Source: a virus (lineage: Duplodnaviria > Heunggongvirae > Uroviricota > Caudoviricetes). Taken from it: 19,447 bases of DNA. Shown one piece after another: positions 654-18,302 of the stretch; positions within the stretch are counted from its first letter, which is position 1, and each line of letters starts with the position of its first letter. The notes under the pieces are model-generated. The model saw only the letters and a program-made list of their open reading frames with translations, was not told where the DNA came from and searched no databases. The translations under genes were made by a program, and so were the position numbers. Location of the stretch: IMG/VR virus record IMGVR_UViG_2563366807_000009; one strand, 5' to 3'.

Positions 654-730
654 GCGCCCTTAGCTCAGTTGGATAGAGCAACGACCTTCTAAGTCGTGGG
701 CCGCAGGTTCGAATCCTGCAGGGCGCGCCA
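654..730 (+). tRNA. argU: tRNA-Arg (anticodon UCU)
   Basis: 77-nt cloverleaf GCGCCCTTAGCTCAGTTGGATAGAGCAACGACCTTCTAAGTCGTGGGCCGCAGGTTCGAATCCTGCAGGGCGCGCCA with encoded CCA end, anticodon loop CT-TCT-AA, GTTCGAATC T-loop. An integrase gene follows immediately, as expected for a prophage attachment tRNA. Confidence 0.95.
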
Positions 731-745
731 TTACAATTCAATCAG

Positions 746-1909
746 TTACGCCTTCTTTATATCCTCCATAATTCCAGAGTGGGACATATTTGGGACATTA
801 TCACCAAAAATGTCGTCTATTTTCCTCGCATGCTCTGTCAAATGATTAGGCGCAAGGTGAGCATACCTACGAACCATTTCTATGGACTCCCATCCGCCCA
901 TTTCCTGAAGCACTGATAATGGGACGCCTGACTGAATCAGCCAGCTTGCCCAGGTGTGTCTGAGGTCATGGAAACGGAAATCTTCAATTCCTGCACGACG
1001 ACAAGCTGATAGCCATGATGTCTTGCTGTCGATGCGCATCTTCCTGACCGCAGGCGTTGATGTTCCATCTGCTCGCTTAGCCGCCTTGGTATGTACAAAC
1101 ACCCATTTGTGATGCTTGCCTATTTGATCACGCAACACTTTACAGGCGGTATCGTTCAGCGCCACACCAATGGCGCGGTTTGATTTGCTCTCTTCTGGAT
1201 TCACCCAGGCAACTCGTCGCTGCATGTCGATTTGTTGCCATTCCAGATTTATGATGTTCGACTTTCTCAGACCAGTTGCCAGCGCAAACTTGACGACAGA
1301 TTTCAGTGGTTCGGGGCACTCATCAATAAGGCGTTTTGCTTCCTCCTTTTCCAGCCATCTGACTCGCTTGTTTCTGACCGCTGGTATCTTGATGACAGGC
1401 GCTTTTTCCAGCCACTTCCAGTCGCGTTCTGCAGCACGGAGAATGGCCTTTATCATGGCAAGATGCTTTGCCTTTGTCTGAGTTGATACTGGCTTTGGTT
1501 CATAAACAGGCAGTTCTTTACCTTTCCTGATGGCGGCCTGAACTTTCTGTTTCCATATTTCTTTCGTCTTTCTGTTATGCATTCTGCTTACAGCAGAGTA
1601 AATCTTTGCCTCCGAGATATCTTTAAGCCTTATACCCTCAAAATGTTCAAGCCAGAACTCAATCCGGCTTTTATCTGAATCGAGAGATTTTTTATCAGCT
1701 TTTTCCTCAAGCCATCTTAGGCAGGCCTCTTCAAAAGTGACATCAGGTAAATCCCCTAGCTTTTCTACTCGCCAGAGTTCTGCTTTTCGCTTGTCGTGCA
1801 ACTCCTGAGCTTGCCGCTTGTCCTTTGTGCCAAGAGATTCCTTAATTCGTTTCCCGCCCGGGAGCGAATACGAGGCATACCATATTTCATTTCTGCGGAA
1901 GAGTGACAT
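746..1909 (-). CDS. intD: phage integrase, tyrosine recombinase (DLP12 IntD-like)
   Basis: 387-aa ORF ending 16 bp from the argU 3' end. C-terminal catalytic region [39 protein letters not shown] carries the R..H-x-x-R...Y signature of tyrosine recombinases. Length and position match the argU-linked integrase of E. coli lambdoid prophages. Confidence 0.9.
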
Positions 1910-3234: not shown

Positions 3235-3389
3235 ACCGCCTCCCGTTTATTATTTATCTTCTCAGCCAGCCGCTGTGCTTTCAGGGGATTTCTGATAACA
3301 GAAAGGCCGGGAAATACCCAGCCTCGCTTTGTAATGGAGTAGACGAAAGTGATCGCGCCTACCCGGATATTATCGTGAGGATGCGTCAT
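3207..3389 (-). CDS. hypothetical small phage protein (about 60 aa)
   Basis: ATG at 3389..3387 overlaps the exo stop TGA (3388..3386) as ATGA, suggesting translational coupling to exo. The ORF track's start at 3395 is 2 codons upstream. Confidence 0.45.
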
Positions 3390-4066
3390 CGCCATTGCTC
3401 CCCAAATACAAAACCAATTTCAGCCAGTGCCTCGTCCATTTTTTCGATGAACTCCGGCACCATCTCGTCAAAACTCGCCATGTAATTTTCATCCCGCTCA
3501 ACCACGACATAATGCAGGCCTTCACGCTTCATTCGTGGGTCATAGTTGGCAAAGTACCAGGCATCTTTTCGCGTCACCCACATGCTGTACTGCACCTGGG
3601 CCATGTAAGCCGACTTTATGGCCTCGAAACCACCGAGCCGGAATTTCATGAAATCCCGGGAGGTAAACGGGCATTTCAGTTCAAGGCCGTTGCCGTCACT
3701 GCATAAACCATCGGGAGAGCAGGCGGTGCGCATACTTTCGTCGCGATAGATGATCGGGGATTCAGTAACATTCACGCCGGAAGTAAACTCAAACAGGGCT
3801 CTGGCGTCGTTCTCGTACTGTTTTCCCCAGGCCAGCGCCTTAGCATTAACTTCCGGAGCCACACCGGTGCAAACCTCAGCCAGCAGGGTGTGGAAGTAGG
3901 ACATTTTCATGTCAGGCCACTTCTTTCCTGAGCGGGGCTTTGCTATCACGTTGTGAACTTCTGAAGCGGTGATGACGCCGAGCCGTAATTTGTGCCACGC
4001 ATCATCCCCCTGTTCGACAGCTCTCACGTCGATCCCGGTACGCTGCAGGATAATGTCCGGTGTCAT
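3386..4066 (-). CDS. exo: lambda-type Red exonuclease (YqaJ-like 5'-3' exonuclease)
   Basis: 226 aa, [54 protein letters not shown]..., matches lambda Exo as I recall it nearly residue for residue. ATGA overlap with the bet stop. Confidence 0.96.
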
Positions 4067-4848
4067 GCTGCCACCTTCTGCTCAGTGGCTTTTTGTTTCA
4101 GGAATCCAAGAGCTTTCACTGCTTCGGCCTGTGTCAGTTCTGACGATGCACGAATGTCGCGGCGAAATATCTGGGAACAGAGCGGCAATAAGTCGTCATC
4201 CCATGTTTTATCCAGGGCGATCAGCAGAGTGTTAATCTCCTGCATGGTTTCATCGTTAACCGGAGTGATGTCGCGTTCCGGCTGACGTTCTGCAGTGTAT
4301 GCGGTATTTTCGACAATGCGCTCGGCTTCATCCTTGTCATAGATACCAGCAAATCCGAAGGCCAGACGGGCACACTGAATCATGGCTTTATGCCGTAACA
4401 TCCGTTTGGGATGCGACTGCCACGGCCCCGTGATTTCTCTGCCTTCGCGGGTTTTGAATGGTTCGCGGCGGCATTCATCCATCCACTCGGTAACGCAGAT
4501 CGGATGATTACGGTCCTTGCGGTAAATCCGGCATGTGCAGGATTCATTGTCCTGCTCAAAGTCCATACCATCAAACTGCTGGTTTTCATTGATGATGCGG
4601 GACCAGCCATCAACGCCCACCACCGGAACGATGCCATTCTGCTTATCAGGAAAGGCGTAAATTTCTTTCGTCCATGGATTAAGGCCGTACTGGTTGGCAA
4701 CGATCAGCAATGCGATGAACTGCGCATCGCTGGCATCACCTTTAAATGCCGTCTGGCGAAGAGTGGTGATCAGTTCCTGTGGGTCGACAGAATCCATGCC
4801 GACACGTTCAGCCAGCTTCCCTGCCAGCGTTGCGAGTGCTGTACTCAT
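4063..4848 (-). CDS. bet: lambda-type Red beta single-strand annealing protein
   Basis: 261 aa, [86 protein letters not shown]..., matches lambda Bet as recalled. Confidence 0.96.
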
Positions 4849-4853
4849 CCGTT

Positions 4854-5150
4854 TTATACCTCTGAATCAATATCAACCTGGTGGTGAGCAATGGTTTCAA
4901 CCATGTACCGGATGTGTTCTGCCATGCGCTCCTGAAACTCAACATCGTCATCAAACGCACGGGTAATGGCTTTTTTGCTGGCCCCGTGGCGTTGCAAATG
5001 ATCGATGCATAGCGATTCAAACAGGTGCTGGGGCAGGCCTTTTTCCATGTCGTCTGCCAGTTCTGCCTCTTTCTCTTCACGGGCGATCTGCTGGTAGTGA
5101 CGCGCCCAGCTCTGAGCCTCAAGACGATCCTGAATGTAATAAGCGTTCAT
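4854..5150 (-). CDS. gam: Gam, RecBCD inhibitor (98-aa form)
   Basis: [60 protein letters not shown]... matches lambda Gam as recalled. Confidence 0.94.
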
Positions 5151-5225
5151 GGCTGAACTCCTGAAAATGGCTGTGAAAAAATCGCCCGCGGAATGCCAGG
5201 CTGATTCGGAAAACAGGAAAGGGGA

Positions 5226-5516
5226 TTAGTGATTCAGACCGTTGCCGCGTCCGTCGAGAAAAACTTCCACGAGCAAGTCACGGGTATAAGTGCGCTCAAT
5301 GCCGCGATGCAGATAAAGTCGTCCGCGTAAATTAGCTGATGCAGTCCAGGTACCATCTTTGCGTTTGACCAGCATTCCTGGCATGACCGCACCGCGATTA
5401 ACGGTCTGCGTTCCGTAATGTTGATGAACCATAAAAACTCCTGCCCGTAAGCTGGGCTGCTGAACATATAAAGACTTCTGCGCGTATTCAGGCGGTGGAT
5501 GGCCGCCGGTTGTCAT
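5226..5516 (-). CDS. hypothetical early-left protein in the kil/cIII position
   Basis: 96-aa ORF preceded by GAGG, first gene downstream of the putative PL. No arginine-rich N-terminus, so not N- or Nun-like. No family recognised. Confidence 0.45.
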   Translation of the reverse strand: MTTGGHPPPEYAQKSLYVQQPSLRAGVFMVHQHYGTQTVNRGAVMPGMLVKRKDGTWTASANLRGRLYLHRGIERTYTRDLLVEVFLDGRGNGLNH

Positions 5517-5707
5517 AACTAAGCCGCCTCGTTGAAGCGACTAAGGTATGAAATGTTGAGTTGATTTCAGCTGGTCACACCGACGTTCACGCGTCCGTTT
5601 CATCCCTCGCACTCCCCGAAGCCTGCTGAAATTCAAGCTGCGGATCTAAGCGGTCATCGCAACGGTGAATCAGGTAGTTGCCGTATCGTTGTGTTGTTGC
5701 GATGAAC

Positions 5708-5790
5708 TTATTTAAAACTATAGTTGTTTTATCGTCAACAACAAAAGTTGTTTTATTGGTTGTTTTAGATATAACTGGTTGTATTTAGGA
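5708..5790 (-). promoter_or_regulatory. OL/PL-like operator-promoter region
   Basis: The 17-mer AAAACTATAGTTGTTTT (5714-5730) is the reverse complement, with one mismatch, of the OR 17-mer at 8144-8160. Further GTTGTTTT-type half-sites lie at about 5746-5754, 5758-5767 and 5777-5785. Minus-strand TTGACG at 5738..5733 is a candidate -35. Confidence 0.5.
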
Positions 5791-5879
5791 TGGATTTATT
5801 TTGTGACTTGAATCGCATAGCGATAACTGAAGCGAGGTTATGGTGGTTTTTTTAACGGTGTGTGTGATGAGGGGAGGGC

Positions 5880-5906
5880 AAAAGAAAACCCGGCACGGTG
5901 GCCGGG
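5880..5906 (-). terminator. Rho-independent terminator ending the cI-cassette operon
   Basis: Perfect 6-bp GC stem CCCGGC/GCCGGG (5889-5894 and 5901-5906), followed on the minus strand by TTTTCTTTT, 8 nt after the stop of the 310-aa ORF. Confidence 0.65.
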
Positions 5907-5914
5907 TAGCATCA

Positions 5915-6847
5915 CTATTCGATTTTTTTAACCATGTAGTTACGTCGTGATGTTCCTAATCTTTCATTGTGAATCTCAGAAACGCTTACTACGAGCGATA
6001 TTCGTTCACCAACTTTATATTTACTTTGAATTTCTCCTAACATATCAATCGGATAAGAAGCCTTTATTTTTCCAAGCTCGCTTGCAATCTCCAATTTCCC
6101 GTACATGGATAAAATAGCAAGTTCGCCTGATATATGCTCATCCGGTAGCTGAATGACCTTCGTTAAAGCTAAGCGAGCATTCAGTTTTTTTATATCTTCT
6201 GAAGAAATTGACACTTGTCTGGTACCATCACTTAAAGGTCCAATCCAAGTAAGATCAAAGTTAAGACTATATTTTTCGCACTCATTTATGATGTTTTTTA
6301 GGTTAGCTGTTGATTGCGAACCAATTTCGGCAATTTTAGCCGTGAATGTTTCTTCATCAATGGATGAGAGTAGTGCAAAAATCTCCTTAACAGCATGACT
6401 GGATACTGTTTCGATGAGCTCGCAAGAACCAGTAGAAAAAGTAACACCTAACTTCGTCGAACCTGGACGCAAGTCTGCCAATCTCATGTCTAATGATTTT
6501 TTAACATCAATCGGCACACGACTAGAATCTTTCCCAGATCCAAGTCGGTAAACTGCTTTCTGTACAAGGGATGCGAGATTACCTGAAATTACAGATAGAA
6601 TATCTAACGGAATAGACCCGAAATCGACCAAAACACCTTTTAATCTCAACTCCATGAAATCACGTAAAGGATGTTGGTTATCGATTGCACGTTGTCTCTC
6701 TCGGAGATCGCTCAGATGGGAGTCAAGTGATCTAAATATAATGTCATCAGCAAATGATCTCCCCTTATTTTGAGCAAGCAGATCCACATCGCGTTGAATG
6801 AACGCAATTCGCTCCTTGAGGGAGTTGAATGTTTTTTCTTCGCTCAT
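5915..6847 (-). CDS. hypothetical 310-aa protein, second gene of the rex-slot cassette; no family recognised
   Basis: Long ORF whose ATG (6847..6845) overlaps the upstream gene's TGA as ATGA. Visibly AT-rich compared with flanking lambda-like genes. Immediately followed by a terminator. No transmembrane segment or catalytic motif that I can assign. Confidence 0.75.
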   Translation of the reverse strand: MSEEKTFNSLKERIAFIQRDVDLLAQNKGRSFADDIIFRSLDSHLSDLRERQRAIDNQHPLRDFMELRLKGVLVDFGSIPLDILSVISGNLASLVQKAVYRLGSGKDSSRVPIDVKKSLDMRLADLRPGSTKLGVTFSTGSCELIETVSSHAVKEIFALLSSIDEETFTAKIAEIGSQSTANLKNIINECEKYSLNFDLTWIGPLSDGTRQVSISSEDIKKLNARLALTKVIQLPDEHISGELAILSMYGKLEIASELGKIKASYPIDMLGEIQSKYKVGERISLVVSVSEIHNERLGTSRRNYMVKKIE

Positions 6848-7317
6848 AACATTACCCTCACGAGGCCTTTAGGATTCTCCTTCCGATCAAAACCAAACCA
6901 CCCTCTCCAGTAACTTCGCCTTTCACTATAATCGATTTCTGGATGATTTTCAGGCAGCAAAAGAACGTCAATGCTGTAGTTTTCTTTAATAAAATCTCTA
7001 TTTAACAATGAGCTGACCAATGGCATCAGCGTGTTTGGCAAAGAGTTTAGGGCCAAATAATCGACGACCACGAGTATATCTATGTCATCAGGTTCAGGTT
7101 TCTCTGTAGTGAATGAACCATCGATCCACACTTCAGAGAAACATAGACACTGCTGATTAACAAGTTTAAATTGCTCAATAAGCTGTATAAAATTACAGTA
7201 TAGCATACTTCTTCTAACGGATTTTGGGAAGGTGTCGACACAAAGAGACTTGATGCCATCACTATCCATATCATGAAATCCTGCTGTAAGAAGAGGTGGG
7301 AAGCTAGGCTTTTCCAT
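6844..7317 (-). CDS. minimal nucleotidyltransferase-like protein (Pol-beta superfamily signature), first gene of the rex-slot cassette
   Basis: 157-aa ORF 81 bp downstream of the cI stop, AAGGA before the ATG. Contains GSFTTEKPEPDDIDILVVV, i.e. G-S, 9 residues, D-I-D, hydrophobic strand, with a later acidic strand YSIDVLLL. This is the hG[GS]-x9-13-Dh[DE]h pattern of MNT-type nucleotidyltransferases. Confidence 0.75.
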   Translation of the reverse strand: MEKPSFPPLLTAGFHDMDSDGIKSLCVDTFPKSVRRSMLYCNFIQLIEQFKLVNQQCLCFSEVWIDGSFTTEKPEPDDIDILVVVDYLALNSLPNTLMPLVSSLLNRDFIKENYSIDVLLLPENHPEIDYSERRSYWRGWFGFDRKENPKGLVRVML

Positions 7318-7398
7318 CCTAAGTCCTTGTTTATGCCATATAGTGTTCTATTTAATATTCTTGAAAAGAGTGTGCCTTAAAAAGCTACAGGCTAATTA

Positions 7399-8088
7399 TT
7401 AACCATGCTTCCTGTACGTCTGCGGCATGCTCCCAATAACCTTACCGAAGATGAACACCCGGTTCATCTCGTCTTTCTCGATCGGGTCCCACGGTGAGTA
7501 GCTTTTGTTATCAGAGATGACCAGCAGCTTATCCTTCATCATTTGCAGGCGCTTTACATGGGCTGTGTCGTCGTACAGAAACGCATAGATACCATCACCG
7601 TCGAAAGATTTAACTGTGATATCAACGAACAGCAGATCACCTGGTTCGATCGTTCCTGACATGCTGTCACCACGCACGTTAATGATGCGGATATTTTCCG
7701 CCTTCCTACCATCGAACATGTGACGAGCATCGTCAAACGAGTACTCAACCGAGCGTAGAACTTCTACAAACTCACGGTTGATGACTCCCGGCCCAGCACT
7801 GACTTCTATATCAAGAACGTCAATCTTGAAGTATTTGGAATGGCTGACAGTTGATTGTATTGGTTGCACTGTACTGTCTGACATATTTCCAACGCCAGAA
7901 GATAACCATTCTGCGCGCACACCCAAAGCGTTCGCGATCTCCACGATTTTAGTTGTTTGATTAGCTTTCCCTGTTTCGATTTTCTGAATAGCAGCCTGGC
8001 TAACCCCGACCAAATCCCCAAGCGCCTTTTGTGTAAGGCCTCGCGCTAATCTGGCTTCTTTAAGTCTTTCTGAGAGTGTTGTTTTCAT
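7399..8088 (-). CDS. cI: CI-like prophage repressor (XRE HTH plus S24 LexA-like autopeptidase domain)
   Basis: Start taken at ATG 8088 (MKTTLSERLKEARLARGLTQKALGDLVGVSQAAIQKIETGK... is the HTH). C-terminal VRGDSMSGTIEPGDLLFVD and AHVKRL supply the Ser/Lys dyad. Not lambda immunity by sequence. The six-frame ORF extends 22 codons upstream into the operator. Confidence 0.85.
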   Translation of the reverse strand: MKTTLSERLKEARLARGLTQKALGDLVGVSQAAIQKIETGKANQTTKIVEIANALGVRAEWLSSGVGNMSDSTVQPIQSTVSHSKYFKIDVLDIEVSAGPGVINREFVEVLRSVEYSFDDARHMFDGRKAENIRIINVRGDSMSGTIEPGDLLFVDITVKSFDGDGIYAFLYDDTAHVKRLQMMKDKLLVISDNKSYSPWDPIEKDEMNRVFIFGKVIGSMPQTYRKHG

Positions 8089-8093
8089 AGTCC

Positions 8094-8166
8094 AAATGTA
8101 CAACCAAGGTTTTATTCCATCAAACGAAAATGGTTGTTGACTAAAAACAACCATAGTTTTAATCTT
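8094..8166. promoter_or_regulatory. OR-like tripartite operator with divergent PRM/PR
   Basis: Three related 17-bp sites spaced about 24-27 bp apart: 8097-8113 (TGTACAACCAAGGTTTT), 8124-8140 (weaker, inverted) and 8144-8160 (AAAACAACCATAGTTTT). TTGACT at 8137-8142 is a -35 for rightward PR. Site 1 lies 9 bp from the cI ATG, suggesting a near-leaderless cI mRNA. Confidence 0.6.
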
Positions 8167-8192
8167 GATTCAAATTAACCACGGAGGTTGTT

Positions 8193-8423
8193 ATGAACCC
8201 AGCTATCAAAACAGCGATCAATATCGTTGGTTCACAAAAGAAACTGGGCGCTGCTTGCGAAGTTTCACAGCAGGCCGTCTATAAGTGGCTTCACAACAAA
8301 GCAAAGGTATCCCCTGAACATGTCGGCAGCATTGTTACGGCTACTGGTGGAGTAGTGAAGGCATACCAGATTCGCCCGGATCTTCCGAAGTTGTTTCCAC
8401 ACACCGAAAAGAACGCAGCTTAA
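8193..8423 (+). CDS. cro: Cro-like HTH regulator
   Basis: 76-aa first rightward ORF, GGAGG 7 nt upstream. HTH-like segment SQKKLGAACEVSQQAVYKWL. Divergent from cI across the operator. Confidence 0.8.
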   Translation: MNPAIKTAINIVGSQKKLGAACEVSQQAVYKWLHNKAKVSPEHVGSIVTATGGVVKAYQIRPDLPKLFPHTEKNAA

Positions 8424-8492
8424 ATTTCCATTTCACGCTCTTTAACAATAAGCAATCAACTTAACAGTCAATTCAAACTAAAGGAGTCAATT

Positions 8493-9032
8493 ATGCAACC
8501 ACTTCCATACCAACAGACTAGCGGATTTAGCCCGACTGCGGTGATAAATCGTTCTCAAACAAAACAGGTGCCAGGCCACGAAAAAATCCGTGATGCCGTC
8601 CGCGCCTGGTCGGCTGTAGATAATCAGGATGTCGTTGCCACACTCATTGTGAATGAGTATCGGGAGCAGGGCGGCGGCACCATCGATTTCCCTGATGATG
8701 TCAGCCGTGCACGCCAGAAGCTGTTCCGCTTCCTCGATAACAAATTCGATTCTGAAAAATACCGAAATAACGTGCGTGAACTGACCCCGGCAATTCTGGC
8801 GGTACTACCGCTGGAATATCGCGGTTACCTGGTTGAGCAGGATAGCTTCATGGCTAGGTTGGCTGAAATGGAAAAGGAACTCAGTGAGGCAAAACAGGCT
8901 GTCATTCTCAACGCACCACGCCACCAGAAACTGAAGGAAATTAGTGAAGGTATTGTATCGATGTTTCGTGTGGACCCAGATCTGGCTGGTCCATTGATGG
9001 CGATGGTTACTACCATGCTGGGGGCGATATGA
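8493..9032 (+). CDS. YdaT-family protein in the cII position
   Basis: 179 aa with AAGGAG Shine-Dalgarno. Segments EYREQGGG and TPAILAVLPLEYR resemble Rac YdaT as I recall it (EYLRQGGG, IPAILAILPREL). Not lambda cII. Confidence 0.65.
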   Translation: MQPLPYQQTSGFSPTAVINRSQTKQVPGHEKIRDAVRAWSAVDNQDVVATLIVNEYREQGGGTIDFPDDVSRARQKLFRFLDNKFDSEKYRNNVRELTPAILAVLPLEYRGYLVEQDSFMARLAEMEKELSEAKQAVILNAPRHQKLKEISEGIVSMFRVDPDLAGPLMAMVTTMLGAI

Positions 9033-9118
9033 CAGGTTCAGAAATGGCGAAAGCCGGTCTGCTGGAACAGAACCGACTTTCAGGTGCAAATCGTAACACA
9101 CTCATTGCGGGAGGAATT

Positions 9119-10048
9119 ATGGCAAACACTGCTGAGATATTCAATTTTCCAGTGCCGGATGCGGCACAAAAGGAGCCGCGCGTGGCAGATCTCGATGATG
9201 GTTATACGCGCATTGCAAATGAGTTGCTGGAAGCTGTGATGCTGGCCGGATTAACACAGCACCAGCTTCTGGTCTTCCTGGCTGTCATGCGCAAAACATA
9301 TGGCTTTAATAAAAAACTGGATTGGGTGAGCAACGAGCAACTTTCCGAATTGACCGGGATATTGCCGCACAAGTGTTCTGCTGCAAAAAGCGTTCTGGTA
9401 AAGCGTGGGATTCTTATTCAGAGCGGGCGGAATATCGGCATTAATAATGTGGTCAGTGAATGGTCAACATTACCCGAATCAGGTAAGAAAAATAAAGTTT
9501 ACCTGAAAGAGGTAAATTTACCTGAATCAGGTAAGAAAAGTTTACCCAAATCAGGTAAAGGCGTTTACCCGAATCAGGTAAACACAAAAGACAAACTAAC
9601 AAAAGACAATATAAAACCTTTTTCGTCCGAGAATTCTGGCGAATCCTCTGACCAGCCAGAAAACGATCTTCCTGTGGTGAAACCGGATGCTGCAATTCAG
9701 AGCGGCAGCAAGTGGGGGACAGCAGAAGACCTGACCGCCGCAGAGTGGATGTTTGACATGGTGAAGACTATCGCACCATCAGCCAGAAAACCGAATTTTG
9801 CTGGGTGGGCTAACGATATCCGCCTGATGCGTGAACGTGACGGACGTAACCACCGCGACATGTGCGTGCTGTTCCGCTGGGCCTGCCAGGACAACTTCTG
9901 GTCCGGTAACGTGCTGAGTCCGGCCAAACTCCGCGACAAGTGGACCCAGCTCGAAATCAACCGGAACAAGCAACAGGCTGGCGTGACAGTCGGCAAACCA
10001 AAACTCGACCTGACAAACACTGACTGGATTTACGGGGTGGATCTATGA
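9119..10048 (+). CDS. O: replication initiator O
   Basis: From ATG 9119 (GGAGG upstream): MANTAEIFNF...VADLDDGY... with a C-terminal half KWGTAEDLTAAEWMFDMVKTIAPSARKPNFAGWANDIRLMRERDGRNHRDMCVLFRW... matching lambda O as recalled. The N-terminal domain differs. An in-frame ATG at 9029 overlapping the upstream stop is an alternative start. Confidence 0.88.
   Translation: MANTAEIFNFPVPDAAQKEPRVADLDDGYTRIANELLEAVMLAGLTQHQLLVFLAVMRKTYGFNKKLDWVSNEQLSELTGILPHKCSAAKSVLVKRGILIQSGRNIGINNVVSEWSTLPESGKKNKVYLKEVNLPESGKKSLPKSGKGVYPNQVNTKDKLTKDNIKPFSSENSGESSDQPENDLPVVKPDAAIQSGSKWGTAEDLTAAEWMFDMVKTIAPSARKPNFAGWANDIRLMRERDGRNHRDMCVLFRWACQDNFWSGNVLSPAKLRDKWTQLEINRNKQQAGVTVGKPKLDLTNTDWIYGVDL
9470..9583 (+). 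repeat. ori iterons inside O, followed by an A-rich tract
   Basis: Five direct copies of a roughly 19-bp unit TTTACCYGAATCAGGTAAR at 9470-9487, 9498-9516 (degenerate), 9517-9535, 9541-9560 and 9564-9582, then ACACAAAAGACAAACTAACAAAAGACAATATAAAACC. Confidence 0.85.
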
Positions 10049-11293: not shown

Positions 11294-12796
11294 TTAAATT
11301 GCATCTGCAAACTCTGGGGTTTTTCGCTCAGGTATAATTGATGAGTTGCTGTTGTCACTTTTTTTATTTTCATGATTACGAATAGCCAATGACTCATTAA
11401 AGTCTTTTGCGACTGCTGTCTCAATAAATTCAATTTCTGAATCAGAGTGTTTTTTAACAGCTTCTTTGATCTCATCCAGAGTAACATAGAAAAACTCTTT
11501 TCTACGATTTACAAGATTGACTCTCTTTTTATCGAAGACATCATGTAGTTTTTTTTCTAATGATGGAGCGTCCTCCGAATAAATCATGGCATGTACATCA
11601 AAAATAAAAGGAACAGATGCATCACCGAGCTCATTTACACGGTCTTGCGGATCAAGACGTCGTGTCATGCCTATTTTATAAACATTCTCCCCAAAAGAAC
11701 CTATGTTCGAAATAATATAAACATGACCTTGTTTGGTTTGTTGTGCCATGGATAATGCTCTTTGATGCTTTGATTCAGCCTGCGACAAACTCTGTTCTAG
11801 TTCGGCAATGCGATTTTCGAGGCGCTGCTTCATGTCACCAGTAACTTTTTCCATTTCCTTTCTTGCAGCTTCAATTGCTTTTTTATAACGGCGCTCTTCT
11901 GCCTCTGCGTCTTGCATGGCCTTTTCTATTTCTCGTTGTGCACGCTCCTCCTCTCTCATTTGTGCCCTTATTTCTGCCTGTTCTTCTTTTTCTTTCTGTT
12001 TTTGCTCACGATATTCATGGGTAAGCCACAATTCCTCAAGTTTTTTATTGAGGTATTTAGTGTTTATATATATGTGATTTTGCTCGTTTAGTTTATTTAT
12101 GGCCTCAAATGCCTTTGTGATGCGTTCTTCCATTTTAGTGATGTTTTTCCACGTGCAATTGCTAATTGCAGCATCACATTCATTATTAAATGCTCTAGTA
12201 GTTAGCCTGATATTTCTGTCTGTCATTTTTTTACCCTCTGCTCGAGAGCCTTCAACAGTCCATTGGGTTGTACAATATACTGCGCCAGAGTGGGTTTTAT
12301 CCCGCAGCATTAATTTCTGTTCATCCCTGATGGATTTTATTTTGTTTTTAAATTGCTCTGAATCTTCAAAATTAAAATGAGGTTCGTAAAATCCTAGTTC
12401 GGCTAGCTCAACATCTTCTGAATAAATAGAAATTTGCCTTACTAGTTTATCATATATTTCTTTCTTCTCTTTATAAGTTCTTCTTAGCTCTTGGATTTGT
12501 TTATTGATACCATCCATTTTTTCAATGGTGTTTGTTAGTTCATTATTGGCATTTTCTTTTACTTTTAGGGATTCTTCTTTTATTATGGAGCATTCTTGCT
12601 CTGTTTTCTCAATAAGCTTCTTACATTCTTCTTCTACATTAAAATAATCTGCAAAGCGAGATTTGTATTCTTCATTTTTTTGATTGCTATCACTTAATTC
12701 TAATTGTATTTTTTTGATGCGTTTGATTGCAGCTATATAAAGAACAAGAACAACCAATAAAAATATGATTGCAAGTAATAGAGGAGTTTGAGTCAT
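11294..12796 (-). CDS. membrane-anchored coiled-coil protein with C-terminal GIY-YIG/T5orf172-like nuclease domain; candidate anti-phage defence protein
   Basis: 500 aa, strongly AT-rich, convergent with ren. N-terminal hydrophobic helix (LLLAIIFLLVVLVLYIAAI), long E/K/R-rich predicted coiled coils, C-terminal GHVYIISNIGSFGENVYKIGMTRRLDPQDRVNELG...E, i.e. GIY...YIG...R...E spacing. AAGGAA Shine-Dalgarno before the ATG. Confidence 0.85.
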   Translation of the reverse strand: MTQTPLLLAIIFLLVVLVLYIAAIKRIKKIQLELSDSNQKNEEYKSRFADYFNVEEECKKLIEKTEQECSIIKEESLKVKENANNELTNTIEKMDGINKQIQELRRTYKEKKEIYDKLVRQISIYSEDVELAELGFYEPHFNFEDSEQFKNKIKSIRDEQKLMLRDKTHSGAVYCTTQWTVEGSRAEGKKMTDRNIRLTTRAFNNECDAAISNCTWKNITKMEERITKAFEAINKLNEQNHIYINTKYLNKKLEELWLTHEYREQKQKEKEEQAEIRAQMREEERAQREIEKAMQDAEAEERRYKKAIEAARKEMEKVTGDMKQRLENRIAELEQSLSQAESKHQRALSMAQQTKQGHVYIISNIGSFGENVYKIGMTRRLDPQDRVNELGDASVPFIFDVHAMIYSEDAPSLEKKLHDVFDKKRVNLVNRRKEFFYVTLDEIKEAVKKHSDSEIEFIETAVAKDFNESLAIRNHENKKSDNSNSSIIPERKTPEFADAI

Positions 12797-13341: not shown

Positions 13342-13452
13342 TTGACGACATGATTTATCCGGCGCTATATTCTGTGCGTTGCCGCAAAATCGGCACACGG
13401 GATTGGCGTCCCGGGATACTACTCAACGCATACCGCGTTAAGCGGTTTTTTT
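13342..13452 (+). ncRNA. candidate short terminated transcript (sRNA or attenuated leader) upstream of the Bro-N gene
   Basis: TTGACG (13342-13347), 18-bp spacer, TATATT (13366-13371). Downstream, a GC stem ACCGC/GCGGT with GTTAA loop (13432-13446) runs into a T tract to 13452. The region between is GC-rich and self-complementary. No ORF. Confidence 0.3.
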
Positions 13453-13608
13453 GTGCGCTAAGCACGGCTATGCCCAAATTATGGTGGGCTGTGTGAGGGC
13501 TTCTTCGGAAGCGCCGGGTTTGAGTAGCCGGTTACGCCAACCTTACACAGTTCACCACCAGTCGATTGGCGTCGTTGGTGGTGATGGTTAACCTGATGAG
13601 GTGATACT

Positions 13609-14217
13609 ATGACTACTCAATTAGCATTCCACAAAACGACGTTTACCCCGATTTGCCACAATAACAGAATTTGGCTTACTGCCACTGAAGTTGGTTTAGC
13701 ACTGGAATATGCGGACGATAAAGCAGTTCAGCGCATTTACTCTCGGCACTCAGATGAATTCACAGATATGATGACAAGGGTGGTCAAAGTGACCACCCCT
13801 CGTGGAATGCAGGAGTCTCGAGTATTTAGCCTTCGCGGAGCCCATTTGATCGCCATGTTTGCTCGTACTCCTGTGGCCAAAGAATTCCGCCGCTGGGTTC
13901 TGGATATTCTCGATCGAGAAGTTCAACAATCCCCAATCACAAAACAATTCACTGATAACGAACTTTGCACACTCGCCTGGTTATGGCGAGCAAGTGATAC
14001 GATGTTAACCGCCTGCCAGAACGTTACGCCCCTTCTTCAGGTCGCAGAGCATCGCGAAGCAGGTAGATTCACTTCAATCGAACAAGAATATCCTCGGATA
14101 CTCAACAGGGCGCGAGAAATCCTTGCCAGAGAAACGGCGCATGTAAAATTCCAACCGTGGCAGGATGATAAGTGGAGTCGTGTGTTACCATATTTCCGTC
14201 AGAATCTGTTGCAATAA
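13609..14217 (+). CDS. Bro-N domain antirepressor-like protein
   Basis: 202 aa, GAGGTG Shine-Dalgarno. N-terminal IWLTATEVGLALEYADDKAVQRIYSRHSDEF...RVFSLRGAHLIAMFARTPVAKEFRRWVLDIL fits the Bro-N/antirepressor pattern as I know it. Confidence 0.75.
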   Translation: MTTQLAFHKTTFTPICHNNRIWLTATEVGLALEYADDKAVQRIYSRHSDEFTDMMTRVVKVTTPRGMQESRVFSLRGAHLIAMFARTPVAKEFRRWVLDILDREVQQSPITKQFTDNELCTLAWLWRASDTMLTACQNVTPLLQVAEHREAGRFTSIEQEYPRILNRAREILARETAHVKFQPWQDDKWSRVLPYFRQNLLQ

Positions 14218-16561: not shown

Positions 16562-16646
16562 AGTCAGAGATAACAATCAACTAATACTGTTTTGTTGATT
16601 TTTGCTTGTAATTGGCGTTCTGGTCTGAGTTTTGTGGAGTAAGTTG

Positions 16647-17030
16647 ATGCGTGATATTCAGATGGTTCTTGAGCGTTGGGGAGCGTGGGCGGCTAATAAT
16701 CATGAAGATGTGACCTGGTCGTCCATTGCCGCCGGTTTTAAGGGATTAATTCCTTCAAAAGTAAAATCTCGCCCGCAATGTTGTGACGATGACGCGATGA
16801 TCATTTGCGGGTGCATGGCCCGTCTGAAAAAGAACAACAGCGATTTGCACGATTTATTAGTAGATTATTATGTAGTCGGTATGACATTCATGTCACTGGC
16901 AGGTAAGCATTGCTGCTCTGATGGTTATATCGGGAAAAGGTTACAAAAGGCTGAGGGCATAATTGAAGGGATGTTAATGGCATTAGATATCCGGTTAGAG
17001 ATGGATATCGTTGTTAATAACTCTAATTAA
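16647..17030 (+). CDS. quuD: late-gene antiterminator Q (phage 82/DLP12 QuuD-type)
   Basis: 127 aa from ATG 16647 (GGAG 7 nt upstream): [60 protein letters not shown]..., Cys-rich. Last gene before the late/lysis region. The track's TTG start at 16632 is less likely. Confidence 0.85.
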
Positions 17031-17219: not shown

Positions 17220-18302
17220 TTAGAACTGGTAAACCAGACCTACAGCAACGATGTCATCAGTATCAATACCAGCTGTTTTGGTAAACTTACTATCGTCAAT
17301 TAAGTTGATTTTGTAATCAACAAAAGTGGACATGTTTTTATTAAAGTAGTAAGTAGCACCGACATCGACATACTTGACTAAGTCTCGGTCACCATGAACA
17401 CCAAGGTCTTTACCTTTTGACTGAAGGTAAGCAACAGATGGGCGCAGACCGAAGTCAAACTGATATTGTGCTACTGCTTCAAAGTTTTGTGCTTTGTTTG
17501 CAATATGGTTATTACCAAAAACGGTCATATTCTGAGTTTCAGAATATGTGGTAGCCAGATAGATATTGTTCGCATCATATTTCAGGCCTGCAGCCCATAC
17601 TTCCGCATTTTTGCCGGAGGCATTGAATTTGCTCTTACCATAGGCGACCTGACCGTCAGTGCGATCTGATTTAGCATAGGTTGCACCCACGCCGAATCCT
17701 TCATACTCATAAGTAGTGGAGAAACCGAAACCATCACCATTGGCTTCAGTTACGTCAGTGCGGTCATTTTTACCCTGATACTGAGCAGCAAAGTTCAGGC
17801 CATCGACCAGACCAAAGAAGTCGTTGTTACGATAAGTTGCAACACCAGTAGTGCGACCAGTCATGAACACATCTGTTTGGGTCCAGGTATCACCACCGAA
17901 TTCTGGCAGGACGTCAGTCCACGCACCGATGTCGTATGCTACACCGTAGTTACGGCCGTAATCGATTGAGCCGTAATCACCAAATTTCAGGCCTGCAAAT
18001 GCAAGACGGGTTTTGTCTTTGGAAGAACCTTGAGATTCAGCGCGGTTGCCTTTGAATTCATATTCCCACTGACCGAAACCAGTCAGTTGATCGTTGATTT
18101 GGGTTTCACCTTTGAAGCCAAGACGGGCATAAGTAGTATCACCATCATCTGCATCATTAGAGGAGAAGTAGTGCTTAGCATTAACTTTCCCGTACAGATC
18201 CAGCTTGTTACTGTCTTTATTATAAATTTCAGCTGCCTGAGCAGACATCGCCATCAGTACTGATGCAGCTACAGCAGAAATTGCCACTGTTAATTTTTTC
18301 AT
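17220..18302 (-). CDS. nmpC: outer-membrane porin, OmpC/OmpF family (NmpC/Lc-type), apparently intact
   Basis: 360 aa with signal peptide [29 protein letters not shown], porin hallmarks and C-terminal ...VAVGLVYQF. Uninterrupted here. Confidence 0.93.

What the first reader, a model, noticed from the sequence alone, without database searches (positions are those of the whole stretch)
6844..7317. Minimal-nucleotidyltransferase signature in the 157-aa cassette protein
GSFTTEKPEPDDIDILVVV places G-S, nine residues, then D-I-D at the head of a hydrophobic strand, with a second acidic strand (YSIDVLLL) about 35 residues later. That is the spacing of the Pol-beta/MNT nucleotidyltransferase active site, as in MntA-type antitoxins and other small NTases. 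NTases in defence contexts act as signal generators or as modifiers of a partner toxin, so the 310-aa neighbour may be its target or effector. The fold assignment comes from the motif alone.
Basis: partly seen in the sequence, partly recalled or inferred. Interest (0 to 1): 0.75.

Follow-up and report, generated by a model that had tools for sequence, protein, structure and literature searches.

The report
Prophage nucleotidyltransferase with obligate partner gene
The 157-residue protein does have the fold and catalytic residues of a small nucleotidyltransferase, and with its 310-residue partner it forms a removable two-gene cassette behind a prophage repressor that databases already list as an untested anti-phage candidate.

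Summary

The protein belongs to Pfam DUF6932. It does not qualify as an MntA antitoxin: the partner has no HEPN domain, its only Rx4H motif is not conserved, and the NTase Pfam models score below threshold.

The gene pair matches PADLOC candidate PDC-M63, which is catalogued but untested. One published deletion of it showed no phenotype.

New here:
- The partner lies directly downstream in 77 of 80 genome loci, spanning many bacterial phyla and methanogenic archaea, and in 80 of 80 viral loci. The two genes usually overlap by 4 nt.
- In phages the pair sits behind many different cI-type repressors.
- The cassette is window 5907-7396. Phage PhiR34_1 has nearly identical flanks and lacks it.
- Variant partners keep only an N-terminal helical hairpin and carry transmembrane or TPR C-termini instead.

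Most likely this is a toxin-antitoxin-like or abortive-infection module made in lysogens, with the NTase restraining a modular effector. That mechanism is inferred, not shown. Interest is moderate.

The parts
6844..7317 (-). Gene for the 157-aa minimal nucleotidyltransferase (Pfam DUF6932; PADLOC PDC-M63A; phrog_9194)
7078..7119 (-). Codons for G67-S68 ... D78-I79-D80, the NTase G-S and DxD catalytic motif
   Evidence: Codons read. G67, S68, T71, K73, D78 and D80 are invariant in 67 homologues. They are retained in NTases paired with variant partners.
6967..6969 (-). Codon for D117, the predicted third catalytic carboxylate, at the start of strand 116-123
   Evidence: At least 90% conserved. 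Strand E116-123 in the model.
6844..6918 (-). Codons for the conserved C-terminal motif R134-SYWRGWFGFDR-x-E-x-PKG151, specific to the DUF6932 family (residues 134-157)
   Evidence: W137, K150 and G151 are invariant; R134, R138, G139, F141 and R145 are at least 90% conserved. The motif is kept with variant partners. Its function is unknown.
5915..6847 (-). Gene for the 310-aa partner (PADLOC PDC-M63B; phrog_6603; no Pfam family). Soluble. S130 is the only invariant residue across the deep family alignment.
   Evidence: 274 stand-alone representatives of about 300-325 aa. No TM segment. Nothing convincing in PDB by profile.
6674..6847 (-). Codons for the partner's N-terminal ~58-aa helical hairpin (motif ..P-D-x-F-A..L...S-L..H-L..L..), shared with variant partners that have other C-termini; proposed NTase-docking or target module
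   Evidence: Profile matches restricted to positions 1-58 in L028, L038, L055, L060, L064 and L071. Alignment A5. Variant C-termini are TPR repeats or two TM helices.
7318..7398 (-). 81-nt leader between the cI stop codon and the NTase start codon; contains the AAGGA ribosome-binding site; no terminator predicted
   Evidence: Sequence. Terminator scan.
5888..5907 (-). Intrinsic terminator (7-bp stem with 6 G-C pairs, then a T-run) 8 nt after the partner's stop codon; lies in the flank shared with cassette-free phages (analogue of lambda's t_imm)
   Evidence: The flank is conserved in 13 other lambdoid phages and in PhiR34_1.
5907..7396 (-). The whole accessory cassette (leader + NTase + partner), 1,490 bp, GC 36-41% against 51-54% in the flanks
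   Evidence: blastn against PhiR34_1: window 4801-5906 is 98.4% identical and 7397-9200 is 99.7% identical, but PhiR34_1 has 119 unrelated bp in between. Composition.
7399..8154 (-). cI-type repressor (HTH_3 + Peptidase_S24), directly upstream and co-oriented; presumed source of transcription in lysogens
   Evidence: Pfam. Annotated cI in PhiR30_1. The same arrangement recurs behind 60 distinct repressor-like proteins in viral contigs.

Best explanation
The 157-aa protein is a catalytically competent, divergent minimal nucleotidyltransferase of the Pol-beta superfamily (Pfam DUF6932). Its gene is translationally coupled to a 310-aa partner gene. The pair is a self-contained, horizontally mobile two-gene module. 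In this lambdoid prophage the module is a dispensable cassette inserted between the cI repressor gene and the immunity-region terminator, the slot that rexAB occupies in phage lambda. It is therefore probably transcribed with cI in lysogens.

The most likely function is a toxin-antitoxin-like, abortive-infection-type exclusion system working by a 'guard' logic. The NTase is constitutively active and keeps the partner, the effector, switched off. It would do so either by covalently nucleotidylylating the partner, as MntA does to HepT, or by making a nucleotide product that the partner binds, as HalB does for HalA in Hailong. Infection by another phage would interrupt this restraint and release the effector. 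The partner's conserved N-terminal helical hairpin is proposed to be the part that docks to, or is modified by, the NTase. Its C-terminal domain is proposed to be the exchangeable effector.

Shown here: the NTase fold and motifs, the obligate pairing, the cassette boundaries, the placement behind repressors, and the modular partner. Inferred: enzymatic activity, co-transcription with cI, which protein is the effector, any anti-phage role, and the trigger.
For: Fold and active site:
- Pfam DUF6932 at E=4e-26.
- NTase-clan families are the only recurrent secondary hits in 67 members.
- G67, S68, D78 and D80 are invariant and D117 is at least 90% conserved.

Module:
- The partner is immediately downstream on the same strand in 77/80 genome loci, from Enterobacterales, Bacteroidota, Nitrospirae, Acidobacteria, Planctomycetes, Actinomycetota, Parcubacteria and methanogenic archaea. 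The junction is most often a -4 or -8 nt overlap.
- It is downstream in 80/80 viral loci, 74 of them with a -4 overlap.

Cassette and expression:
- The cassette is present or absent between nearly identical flanks in two phages and has low GC.
- No terminator lies between cI and the NTase gene, and a strong one follows the partner.
- Of 60 distinct upstream proteins in phage loci, 40 carry HTH_3 and 33 carry Peptidase_S24.

Effector-like modularity:
- Variant partners share only the N-terminal ~55 residues and end in two TM helices (L055, L060) or TPR repeats (L038).
- Their NTases keep all catalytic and C-terminal motifs.

Defence association:
- Both proteins match PADLOC PDC-M63A/B. That candidate was derived from genes embedded in BREX, DISARM or type I RM systems.
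- The same prophage also carries PD-Lambda-1.
- Scattered defence genes lie next to the module in other genomes.

Precedents for NTase-as-guard: MntA-HepT structures and Hailong HalB-HalA (review PMC13434031).
Against: - No activity, toxicity or phage-resistance data exist for this family.
- Deleting PDC-M63AB in E. coli NILS69 changed nothing against 10 virulent phages (bioRxiv 10.1101/2024.12.20.629700).
- The partner has no recognisable effector domain and no TM segment. Across the family its only strongly conserved polar residues are E63 and S130, so an enzymatic effector role is not evident.
- Frameshifted copies show no antitoxin/toxin asymmetry: 3 partner pseudogenes against 1-2 NTase pseudogenes.
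- Genomic neighbourhoods outside phages are mixed and include housekeeping genes.
Confidence: 0.4

Rival explanations
1. The roles are reversed, as in AbiE/MenT. The NTase is the toxin or effector, for example transferring nucleotides to tRNA acceptor ends or another essential target. The 310-aa partner is its antitoxin or phage sensor and holds the NTase through its N-terminal hairpin.
For: NTase-fold toxins exist: AbiEii and MenT (established knowledge). The NTase is the invariant, catalytically conserved component while the partner's C-terminus is swapped for TPR or TM domains, which could equally mark an exchangeable sensor. The partner shows no catalytic signature.
Against: No match to the AbiEii/DUF1814 family in Pfam or PADLOC. 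The gene order, with a small upstream NTase overlapping a larger downstream gene, is that of antitoxin then toxin in MntA-HepT. Variants with two TM helices look like effectors rather than sensors. One NTase-frameshifted locus keeps an intact partner (L082), which says little either way.
Confidence: 0.2
2. Infection-activated second-messenger signalling, as in CBASS. The NTase is switched on by phage infection, makes a nucleotide signal, and the partner is the signal-activated effector.
Against: At 157 aa the enzyme lacks the C-terminal helical domain of CD-NTases and has no SMODS/CD-NTase Pfam or PADLOC hit. The SAVED hit disappeared with the deeper 113-sequence profile. No SAVED, STING, TIR, patatin or nuclease domain was found in 113 partners. 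The part of the partner conserved across variants is a short helical hairpin, not a ligand-binding domain.
Confidence: 0.12
3. Not a defence system. The pair is an accessory regulator of the mobile element itself, or of host physiology, linked to the repressor module. It might tune lysogeny maintenance or induction, or act simply as an addiction module stabilising the prophage.
For: In phages it sits directly behind cI-type repressors. One relative appears to be fused to a Peptidase_M78 (ImmA/IrrE-type anti-repressor) domain, in a mechanically called 389-aa ORF in L064. XRE-type HTH genes recur nearby in non-phage loci. The one defence test was negative.
Against: The cassette is absent from a viable phage that has a 99.7% identical cI region (PhiR34_1), so it is not needed for immunity or induction. 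Many loci have no repressor nearby, for example L005 in a strain carrying the Bermanella marisrubri protein (between an SOS-mutagenesis-type polymerase cassette and efflux genes) and the Pseudoalteromonas Tn3/mer island. The slot downstream of cI is a known home of exclusion genes such as rexAB and bstA (PMC8585504, listed, plus established knowledge).
Confidence: 0.15
4. A phage counter-defence enzyme: the NTase modifies or depletes a host immune component or signal for the benefit of the phage.
For: It is phage-borne and NTase-fold enzymes are versatile. No direct evidence.
Against: It is placed in the lysogenic (cI) transcription unit rather than among early lytic genes. It also occurs in chromosomes, transposon islands and archaeal genomes outside phages. 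It was first catalogued from genes embedded within host defence systems.
Confidence: 0.05

Closest known systems
PADLOC phage-defence candidate PDC-M63 (PDC-M63A + PDC-M63B), Payne et al. 2024 preprint
   Same: Both window proteins match its HMMs full-length (E=7e-43 and 4e-42) and are adjacent in the expected order. This locus is an instance of PDC-M63.
   Different: PDC-M63 is only a computational candidate, one of 145 described as untested. It has no mechanism, fold assignment or phenotype attached, and one deletion study was negative.
MntA-HepT (MNT-HEPN) type VII toxin-antitoxin systems
   Same: Small Pol-beta-fold NTase with G-S, DxD and a third Asp. MNT chains 7ae9, 7ae2 and 8xeh are among the best structural matches. 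The upstream NTase gene overlaps a downstream partner gene.
   Different: The partner is not HEPN and has no conserved Rx4-6H. The NTase has an extra N-terminal segment (residues 1-33) and a family-specific C-terminal RSYWRGWFGF...PKG motif. PF01909 and PF18765 scores are below threshold. AMPylation has not been tested.
Hailong (HalA ion-channel effector + HalB nucleotidyltransferase)
   Same: A two-gene system in which an NTase acts as a constitutive negative regulator of an effector (review PMC13434031). Some DUF6932 relatives are paired with small two-TM proteins (L055, L060).
Lambda RexAB (and BstA, SieB): exclusion genes downstream of the prophage repressor
   Same: Same genomic slot and orientation: cI, then a two-gene accessory unit, then a terminator. 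Presumed expression in lysogens.
   Different: No sequence relationship was detected: no PADLOC hits other than PDC-M63 and three weak PDC-M candidates. RexB is a multi-pass membrane protein, while neither protein here has a TM segment.
AbiEii/MenT NTase toxins and CBASS CD-NTases
   Different: Those enzymes are much larger, with additional domains. No DUF1814 or SMODS profile match. The partner families are different.

Membership tests
Pol-beta-like nucleotidyltransferase superfamily (fold level) | G-[SG] motif at the end of strand 1 | tested here: met
   G67-S68 follow strand 60-66 and are invariant in 67 homologues.
Pol-beta-like nucleotidyltransferase superfamily (fold level) | [DE]-x-[DE] at the start of strand 2, plus a third carboxylate on the next core strand | tested here: met
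   D78 and D80 are invariant, immediately before strand 79-86. D117 is at least 90% conserved, in strand 116-123.
Pol-beta-like nucleotidyltransferase superfamily (fold level) | alpha-beta-alpha-beta-alpha-beta core that superposes on solved NTases | tested here: met
Pol-beta-like nucleotidyltransferase superfamily (fold level) | Nucleotidyl-transfer activity | not testable with these tools
   Needs enzyme assays.
Pfam DUF6932 (PF22014) | Score above the family's gathering threshold over the full domain | tested here: met
   92.5 bits against a cutoff of 27, residues 8-155 matching profile positions 7-141 of 142. RefSeq annotates the E. coli copies as 'DUF6932 family protein'.
MNT/MntA antitoxin of type VII (MNT-HEPN) TA systems | Membership of PF01909 (NTP_transf_2) or PF18765 (Polbeta) at the curated threshold | tested here: not met
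   PF18765 scores 14.6 bits against a cutoff of 26.9. PF01909 is not reported for the window protein. Only sub-threshold hits occur across the family.
MNT/MntA antitoxin of type VII (MNT-HEPN) TA systems | Adjacent cognate HEPN toxin with a conserved Rx4-6H motif | tested here: not met
   The partner has no Pfam hit. Its RSLDSH (R39-H44) varies to N/D...Y in close homologues. Among 113 family members there were only two isolated weak HEPN-type hits, one member each.
MNT/MntA antitoxin of type VII (MNT-HEPN) TA systems | Neutralisation of the toxin by (oligo)AMPylation | not testable with these tools
   Needs mass spectrometry or biochemistry.
PADLOC PDC-M63 candidate system | Both component HMMs matched, with the genes adjacent and co-oriented | tested here: met
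   PDC-M63A E=7.4e-43 over residues 1-156. PDC-M63B E=4e-42 over residues 25-309. The genes overlap by 4 nt.
PADLOC PDC-M63 candidate system | Demonstrated anti-phage activity | not tested
   Listed as untested by its authors. A deletion in NILS69 had no effect against 10 phages.
CBASS (CD-NTase + effector) | CD-NTase/SMODS-type enzyme with a C-terminal helical domain | tested here: not met
CBASS (CD-NTase + effector) | Effector with a nucleotide-sensing domain (SAVED, STING and the like) | tested here: not met
   A weak SAVED hit at E=1.3 with the shallow profile was lost with the deep profile. None was found in the Pfam scan of 113 members. A fold-level test of the partner was not possible.
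AbiE (AbiEi/AbiEii) type IV TA | AbiEii/DUF1814 NTase together with an AbiEi HTH antitoxin | tested here: not met
   Neither protein has such a hit in Pfam or PADLOC.

The most novel reading that the evidence does not exclude
DUF6932 plus its partner is a new, widespread family of NTase-guarded immune or addiction modules, found across many bacterial phyla and in methanogenic archaea. A minimal NTase would recognise or nucleotidylylate a conserved ~55-residue helical hairpin that serves as a universal handle on interchangeable effectors: the 310-aa soluble domain, two-TM proteins, or TPR proteins. Temperate phages would have recruited the module repeatedly into the repressor operon as a rex-like exclusion system. 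This would be a type VII-like TA logic with a non-HEPN, modular toxin.
Probability: 0.3. Interest if true: 0.7.

Novelty: new variant of a known kind. Interest (0 to 1): 0.5.

Why it matters
If the pair works as proposed, it adds a widespread NTase-controlled two-gene system, present in bacteria, archaea and phages, whose effector family has no known fold or function. That would extend the MntA-HepT and Hailong principle, an NTase acting as a constitutive guard, to a new and modular partner.

It would also give a second well-defined example, after rexAB, of an exclusion cassette carried in the repressor operon of lambdoid prophages. About 1.8% of complete E. coli genomes carry this exact allele (98 of 5,426).

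Two cultured phages have nearly identical immunity regions with and without the cassette (PhiR30_1 and PhiR34_1). That makes the question directly testable.

As it stands the finding is not a surprise to a specialist. The NTase nature is already implied by database names, and the pair is already a listed but unvalidated candidate.

Tried and rejected
1. Single-sequence AF2 of the NTase gave pLDDT 36 and was unusable. This used one of the two structure jobs, so the partner could not be modelled.
2. Profile searches against PDB sequences found nothing significant for the NTase or the partner. A SAVED-domain lead (9r8s, E=1.3) did not survive the deeper profile.
3. HEPN hypothesis for the partner: its RSLDSH motif is not conserved and there are no consistent HEPN hits. 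Rejected.
4. Internal-repeat hypothesis for the partner (the ELRLxG..GS and LRLAG..GST motifs): hhalign of segments was not significant.
5. Toxin/antitoxin asymmetry in pseudogenes: 3 partner against 1-2 NTase frameshifts, which is no signal once gene length is considered.
6. The IS3 insertion between the two genes in strain OkiPb01716 is a single case and not informative.
7. The BFVD viral fold search was uninformative and the afdb50 library was unavailable.
8. Promoter scan: promoter-like hits inside the cassette are no more frequent than in shuffles (7 found against 6.1 expected), so I make no claim of an internal promoter.
9. Literature: no paper mentions DUF6932. None of the five protein accessions searched appears in any paper. 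The DefensePredictor preprint does not mention an NTase. The Hailong primary paper was not held.
Full report
WHAT IS THERE. The window is the early region of a lambdoid prophage. On the - strand it carries exo (3386-4066), bet (4063-4848), gam (4854-5150) and kil. These are followed by a 310-aa ORF (5915-6847), a 157-aa ORF (6844-7317) and a cI-type repressor with HTH_3 and Peptidase_S24 domains (7399-8154). On the + strand it carries cro, a YdaT/cII-like gene, and O- and P-like replication genes. Phage PhiR30_1 (PV340558) is 99.4% identical over window 5800-7400, which spans the cassette. The same allele is present at 99% identity or more in 98 of 5,426 complete E. coli genomes, always on the chromosome, annotated 'DUF6932 family protein' plus 'hypothetical protein'.

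THE OBSERVATION. It is correct. The 157-aa ORF contains G67-S68, nine residues, then D78-I79-D80 leading into ILVVV, and D117 within YSIDVLLL, 37 residues further on. The combined pattern occurs once in the six-frame translation of the window. It occurred in none of 200 shuffles, and the first half alone is expected 0.045 times per shuffled window. In 67 homologues down to 33% identity, G67, S68, T71, K73, D78 and D80 are invariant and D117 is at least 90% conserved. A family-specific C-terminal motif, RSYWRGWFGFDR-x-E-x-PKG, is also conserved.

THE FOLD. Pfam places the protein in DUF6932 (E=4e-26). It also gives sub-threshold hits to DNA_pol_B_palm and Polbeta over the motif region. When all 67 members are scanned, the only recurrent secondary families are NTase families: DNA_pol_B_palm in 41, Polbeta in 30 and NTP_transf_2 in 28, with a best E-value of 5.9e-5.

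The single-sequence AlphaFold run failed at pLDDT 36. With the alignment the model reached pLDDT 96.1 and pTM 0.90. Its topology is helix 34-56, strand 60-66, G-S, strand 79-86 (DxD), helices, strand 116-123 (D117), helix, strand.

NOT AN MntA. The defining partner of MNT antitoxins is a HEPN RNase with an Rx4-6H motif. The 310-aa protein has no Pfam family. Its one Rx4H (RSLDSH) changes to N/D...Y in close relatives. A scan of 113 family members shows no consistent domain. Profiles of 37 and 113 sequences find nothing convincing among PDB sequences; a SAVED-domain hit at E=1.3 vanished with the deeper profile.

An exhaustive search found 274 representatives of the partner. Those listed are nearly all stand-alone proteins of about 300-325 aa. 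Across the family only S130, in a G-S-T turn, is invariant. E63, G77, L81, G129, G176, W201 and G241 are nearly so. The protein has no TM segment and no detectable internal repeat.

ALREADY CATALOGUED. Both proteins match PADLOC's PDC-M63A/B models at E of about 1e-42, and PHROGs 9194 and 6603, both of unknown function. PDC systems are 145 untested candidates, derived from genes embedded in BREX, DISARM and type I RM loci. One study deleted PDC-M63AB from a prophage of E. coli NILS69 and saw no change with 10 virulent phages. No paper mentions DUF6932.

THE MODULE. In one-genome-per-species contigs, 77 of 80 DUF6932 loci have the partner family immediately downstream on the same strand. The junction is most often a 4-nt (31 loci) or 8-nt (10 loci) overlap. 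The exceptions are one contig end and two loci with other downstream ORFs. The hosts span Enterobacterales, other Gammaproteobacteria, Betaproteobacteria, Bacteroidota, Nitrospirae, Acidobacteria, Desulfobacterota, Planctomycetes, Actinomycetota, Chloroflexota, Parcubacteria and two methanogenic archaea. In IMG/VR, all 80 loci have the partner, 74 with the 4-nt overlap. A Pseudoalteromonas partner at 29% identity aligns end to end with the window's partner family (hhalign probability 99.9).

A MODULAR PARTNER. In six loci the downstream ORF matches only profile positions 1 to about 58, a helix-turn-helix hairpin with the motif P-D-x-F-A..L...S-L..H-L..L, and then diverges. L038 continues into TPR repeats. 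L055 and L060 end in two hydrophobic TM helices. L028 has a small unknown domain. The NTases in these loci keep DGS, DxD, the third Asp and the YWRGxFGF..PKG motif. A conserved handle with exchangeable C-termini is the pattern seen for effectors in modular defence and TA systems, so I read the hairpin as the part that meets the NTase. One relative (L064) appears to be a Peptidase_M78-DUF6932 fusion, in a mechanically called ORF.

THE CASSETTE AND ITS EXPRESSION. Phage PhiR34_1 is 98.4% identical to window 4801-5906 and 99.7% identical to 7397-9200, including cI. It has 119 unrelated bp where the window has 5907-7396. The pair is therefore a dispensable 1.49-kb cassette. Its GC content is 36-41% against 51-54% in the flanks.

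No terminator is predicted in the 81 nt between cI and the NTase gene. A strong terminator (5888-5907, - strand) follows the partner and lies in the shared flank. This is the layout of lambda's cI-rexA-rexB-t_imm.

The arrangement is general. In 76 of 78 assessable viral loci the ORF just upstream is co-oriented. Of 60 distinct upstream proteins, many under 20% identical to the first of them, 40 carry HTH_3, 33 Peptidase_S24 and 9 Phage_CI_repr. Outside phages the neighbourhoods are mixed. They include XRE regulators, recombinases, scattered defence genes (type IIG RM, HEC-01, SIR2, PD-T7-4, Ssp, type IV REase) and housekeeping genes.

HOW IT MOST LIKELY WORKS. Five things are shown:
- an NTase fold with an intact, strongly conserved catalytic triad;
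- obligate, translationally coupled pairing with the partner;
- horizontal mobility of the pair;
- placement in the lysogenic transcription unit;
- a partner made of a conserved hairpin plus a swappable C-terminal domain.

From this I infer a TA-like or abortive-infection exclusion module (confidence 0.4). The NTase would constitutively restrain the partner and infection would relieve the restraint. The restraint could be nucleotidylylation, as with MntA-HepT, whose AMPylated complexes are the best Foldseek matches. It could instead be a bound nucleotide product, as with Hailong HalB-HalA.

The rivals are reversed roles, with an AbiEii/MenT-like NTase toxin (0.2); infection-activated signalling (0.12); a non-defence regulatory or addiction role tied to the repressor (0.15); and counter-defence (0.05). 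The main evidence against any defence role is the single negative knockout and the lack of any recognisable effector chemistry in the partner.

VERDICT. The MntA analogy is a resemblance and not membership. The locus is an instance of an already catalogued but uncharacterised candidate system. The new points are the breadth and strictness of the pairing, the repeated placement behind diverse repressors, the exact cassette boundaries with a natural empty-site comparator, and the modular partner. Interest is moderate (0.5). I class it as a new variant of a known kind, NTase-based two-gene TA or defence modules.

Noticed in passing
window 11294-12796 (-): The 500-aa ORF is PD-Lambda-1 (PADLOC E=1.9e-198; Pfam DUF4041 + T5orf172/MUG113). 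It is a second catalogued defence gene, in the nin region of the same prophage. PhiR30_1 carries different cargo there (an acyltransferase and a lipoprotein).
   Followed up: partly
window 13380-13562 (+) and 13609-14217 (+): Rfam finds isrK (58.7 bits) and C4 antisense RNA (74.8 bits) immediately upstream of a Bro-N/P22_AR_C antirepressor gene. This looks like a P1/P7-style c4-ant secondary immunity module inside a lambdoid prophage.
   Followed up: no
window 17220-18302 (-): A 360-aa Gram-negative porin (Porin_1, E=2e-151) lies just after the Q antiterminator gene (16632-17030), so it is a phage-borne outer-membrane porin gene.
   Followed up: no
window 654-727 (+) and 746-1909 (-): A tRNA gene lies directly beside the tyrosine integrase gene, so it is the likely attachment-site tRNA.
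   Followed up: no
window 5517-5887: There is no ORF of 40 aa or more on the - strand between kil and the cassette terminator, where lambda has N. The phage may use an N-independent (HK022 put-like) or very small antiterminator. Rfam found nothing here at gathering thresholds.
   Followed up: no
L064 5284-6453 (+): A mechanically called 389-aa ORF in a Pseudomonadota MAG joins a Peptidase_M78 (ImmA/IrrE) domain to DUF6932. It is followed by a 76-aa ORF that matches only the partner's N-terminal hairpin.
   Followed up: partly
L008 4940-6207 (E. coli OkiPb01716): An IS3 element is inserted exactly between the DUF6932 gene and its partner. It slightly shortens the annotated NTase gene (465 nt instead of 474) and separates the two genes.
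   Followed up: partly
L001 6506-6931 (PhiR30_1 GenBank record): The deposited annotation starts the NTase at Met17 (141 aa). Conservation of residues 1-16 and the ribosome-binding site favour the 157-aa form that RefSeq uses.
   Followed up: yes
L005 1-4566: In L005, a Logan run assembly carrying the protein that NCBI assigns to Bermanella marisrubri, the module sits beside an imuA-imuB-dnaE2-like SOS-mutagenesis gene set (called genes with IMS-family and PHP/DNA_pol3_alpha domains). No phage or defence genes lie within 5 kb.
   Followed up: no
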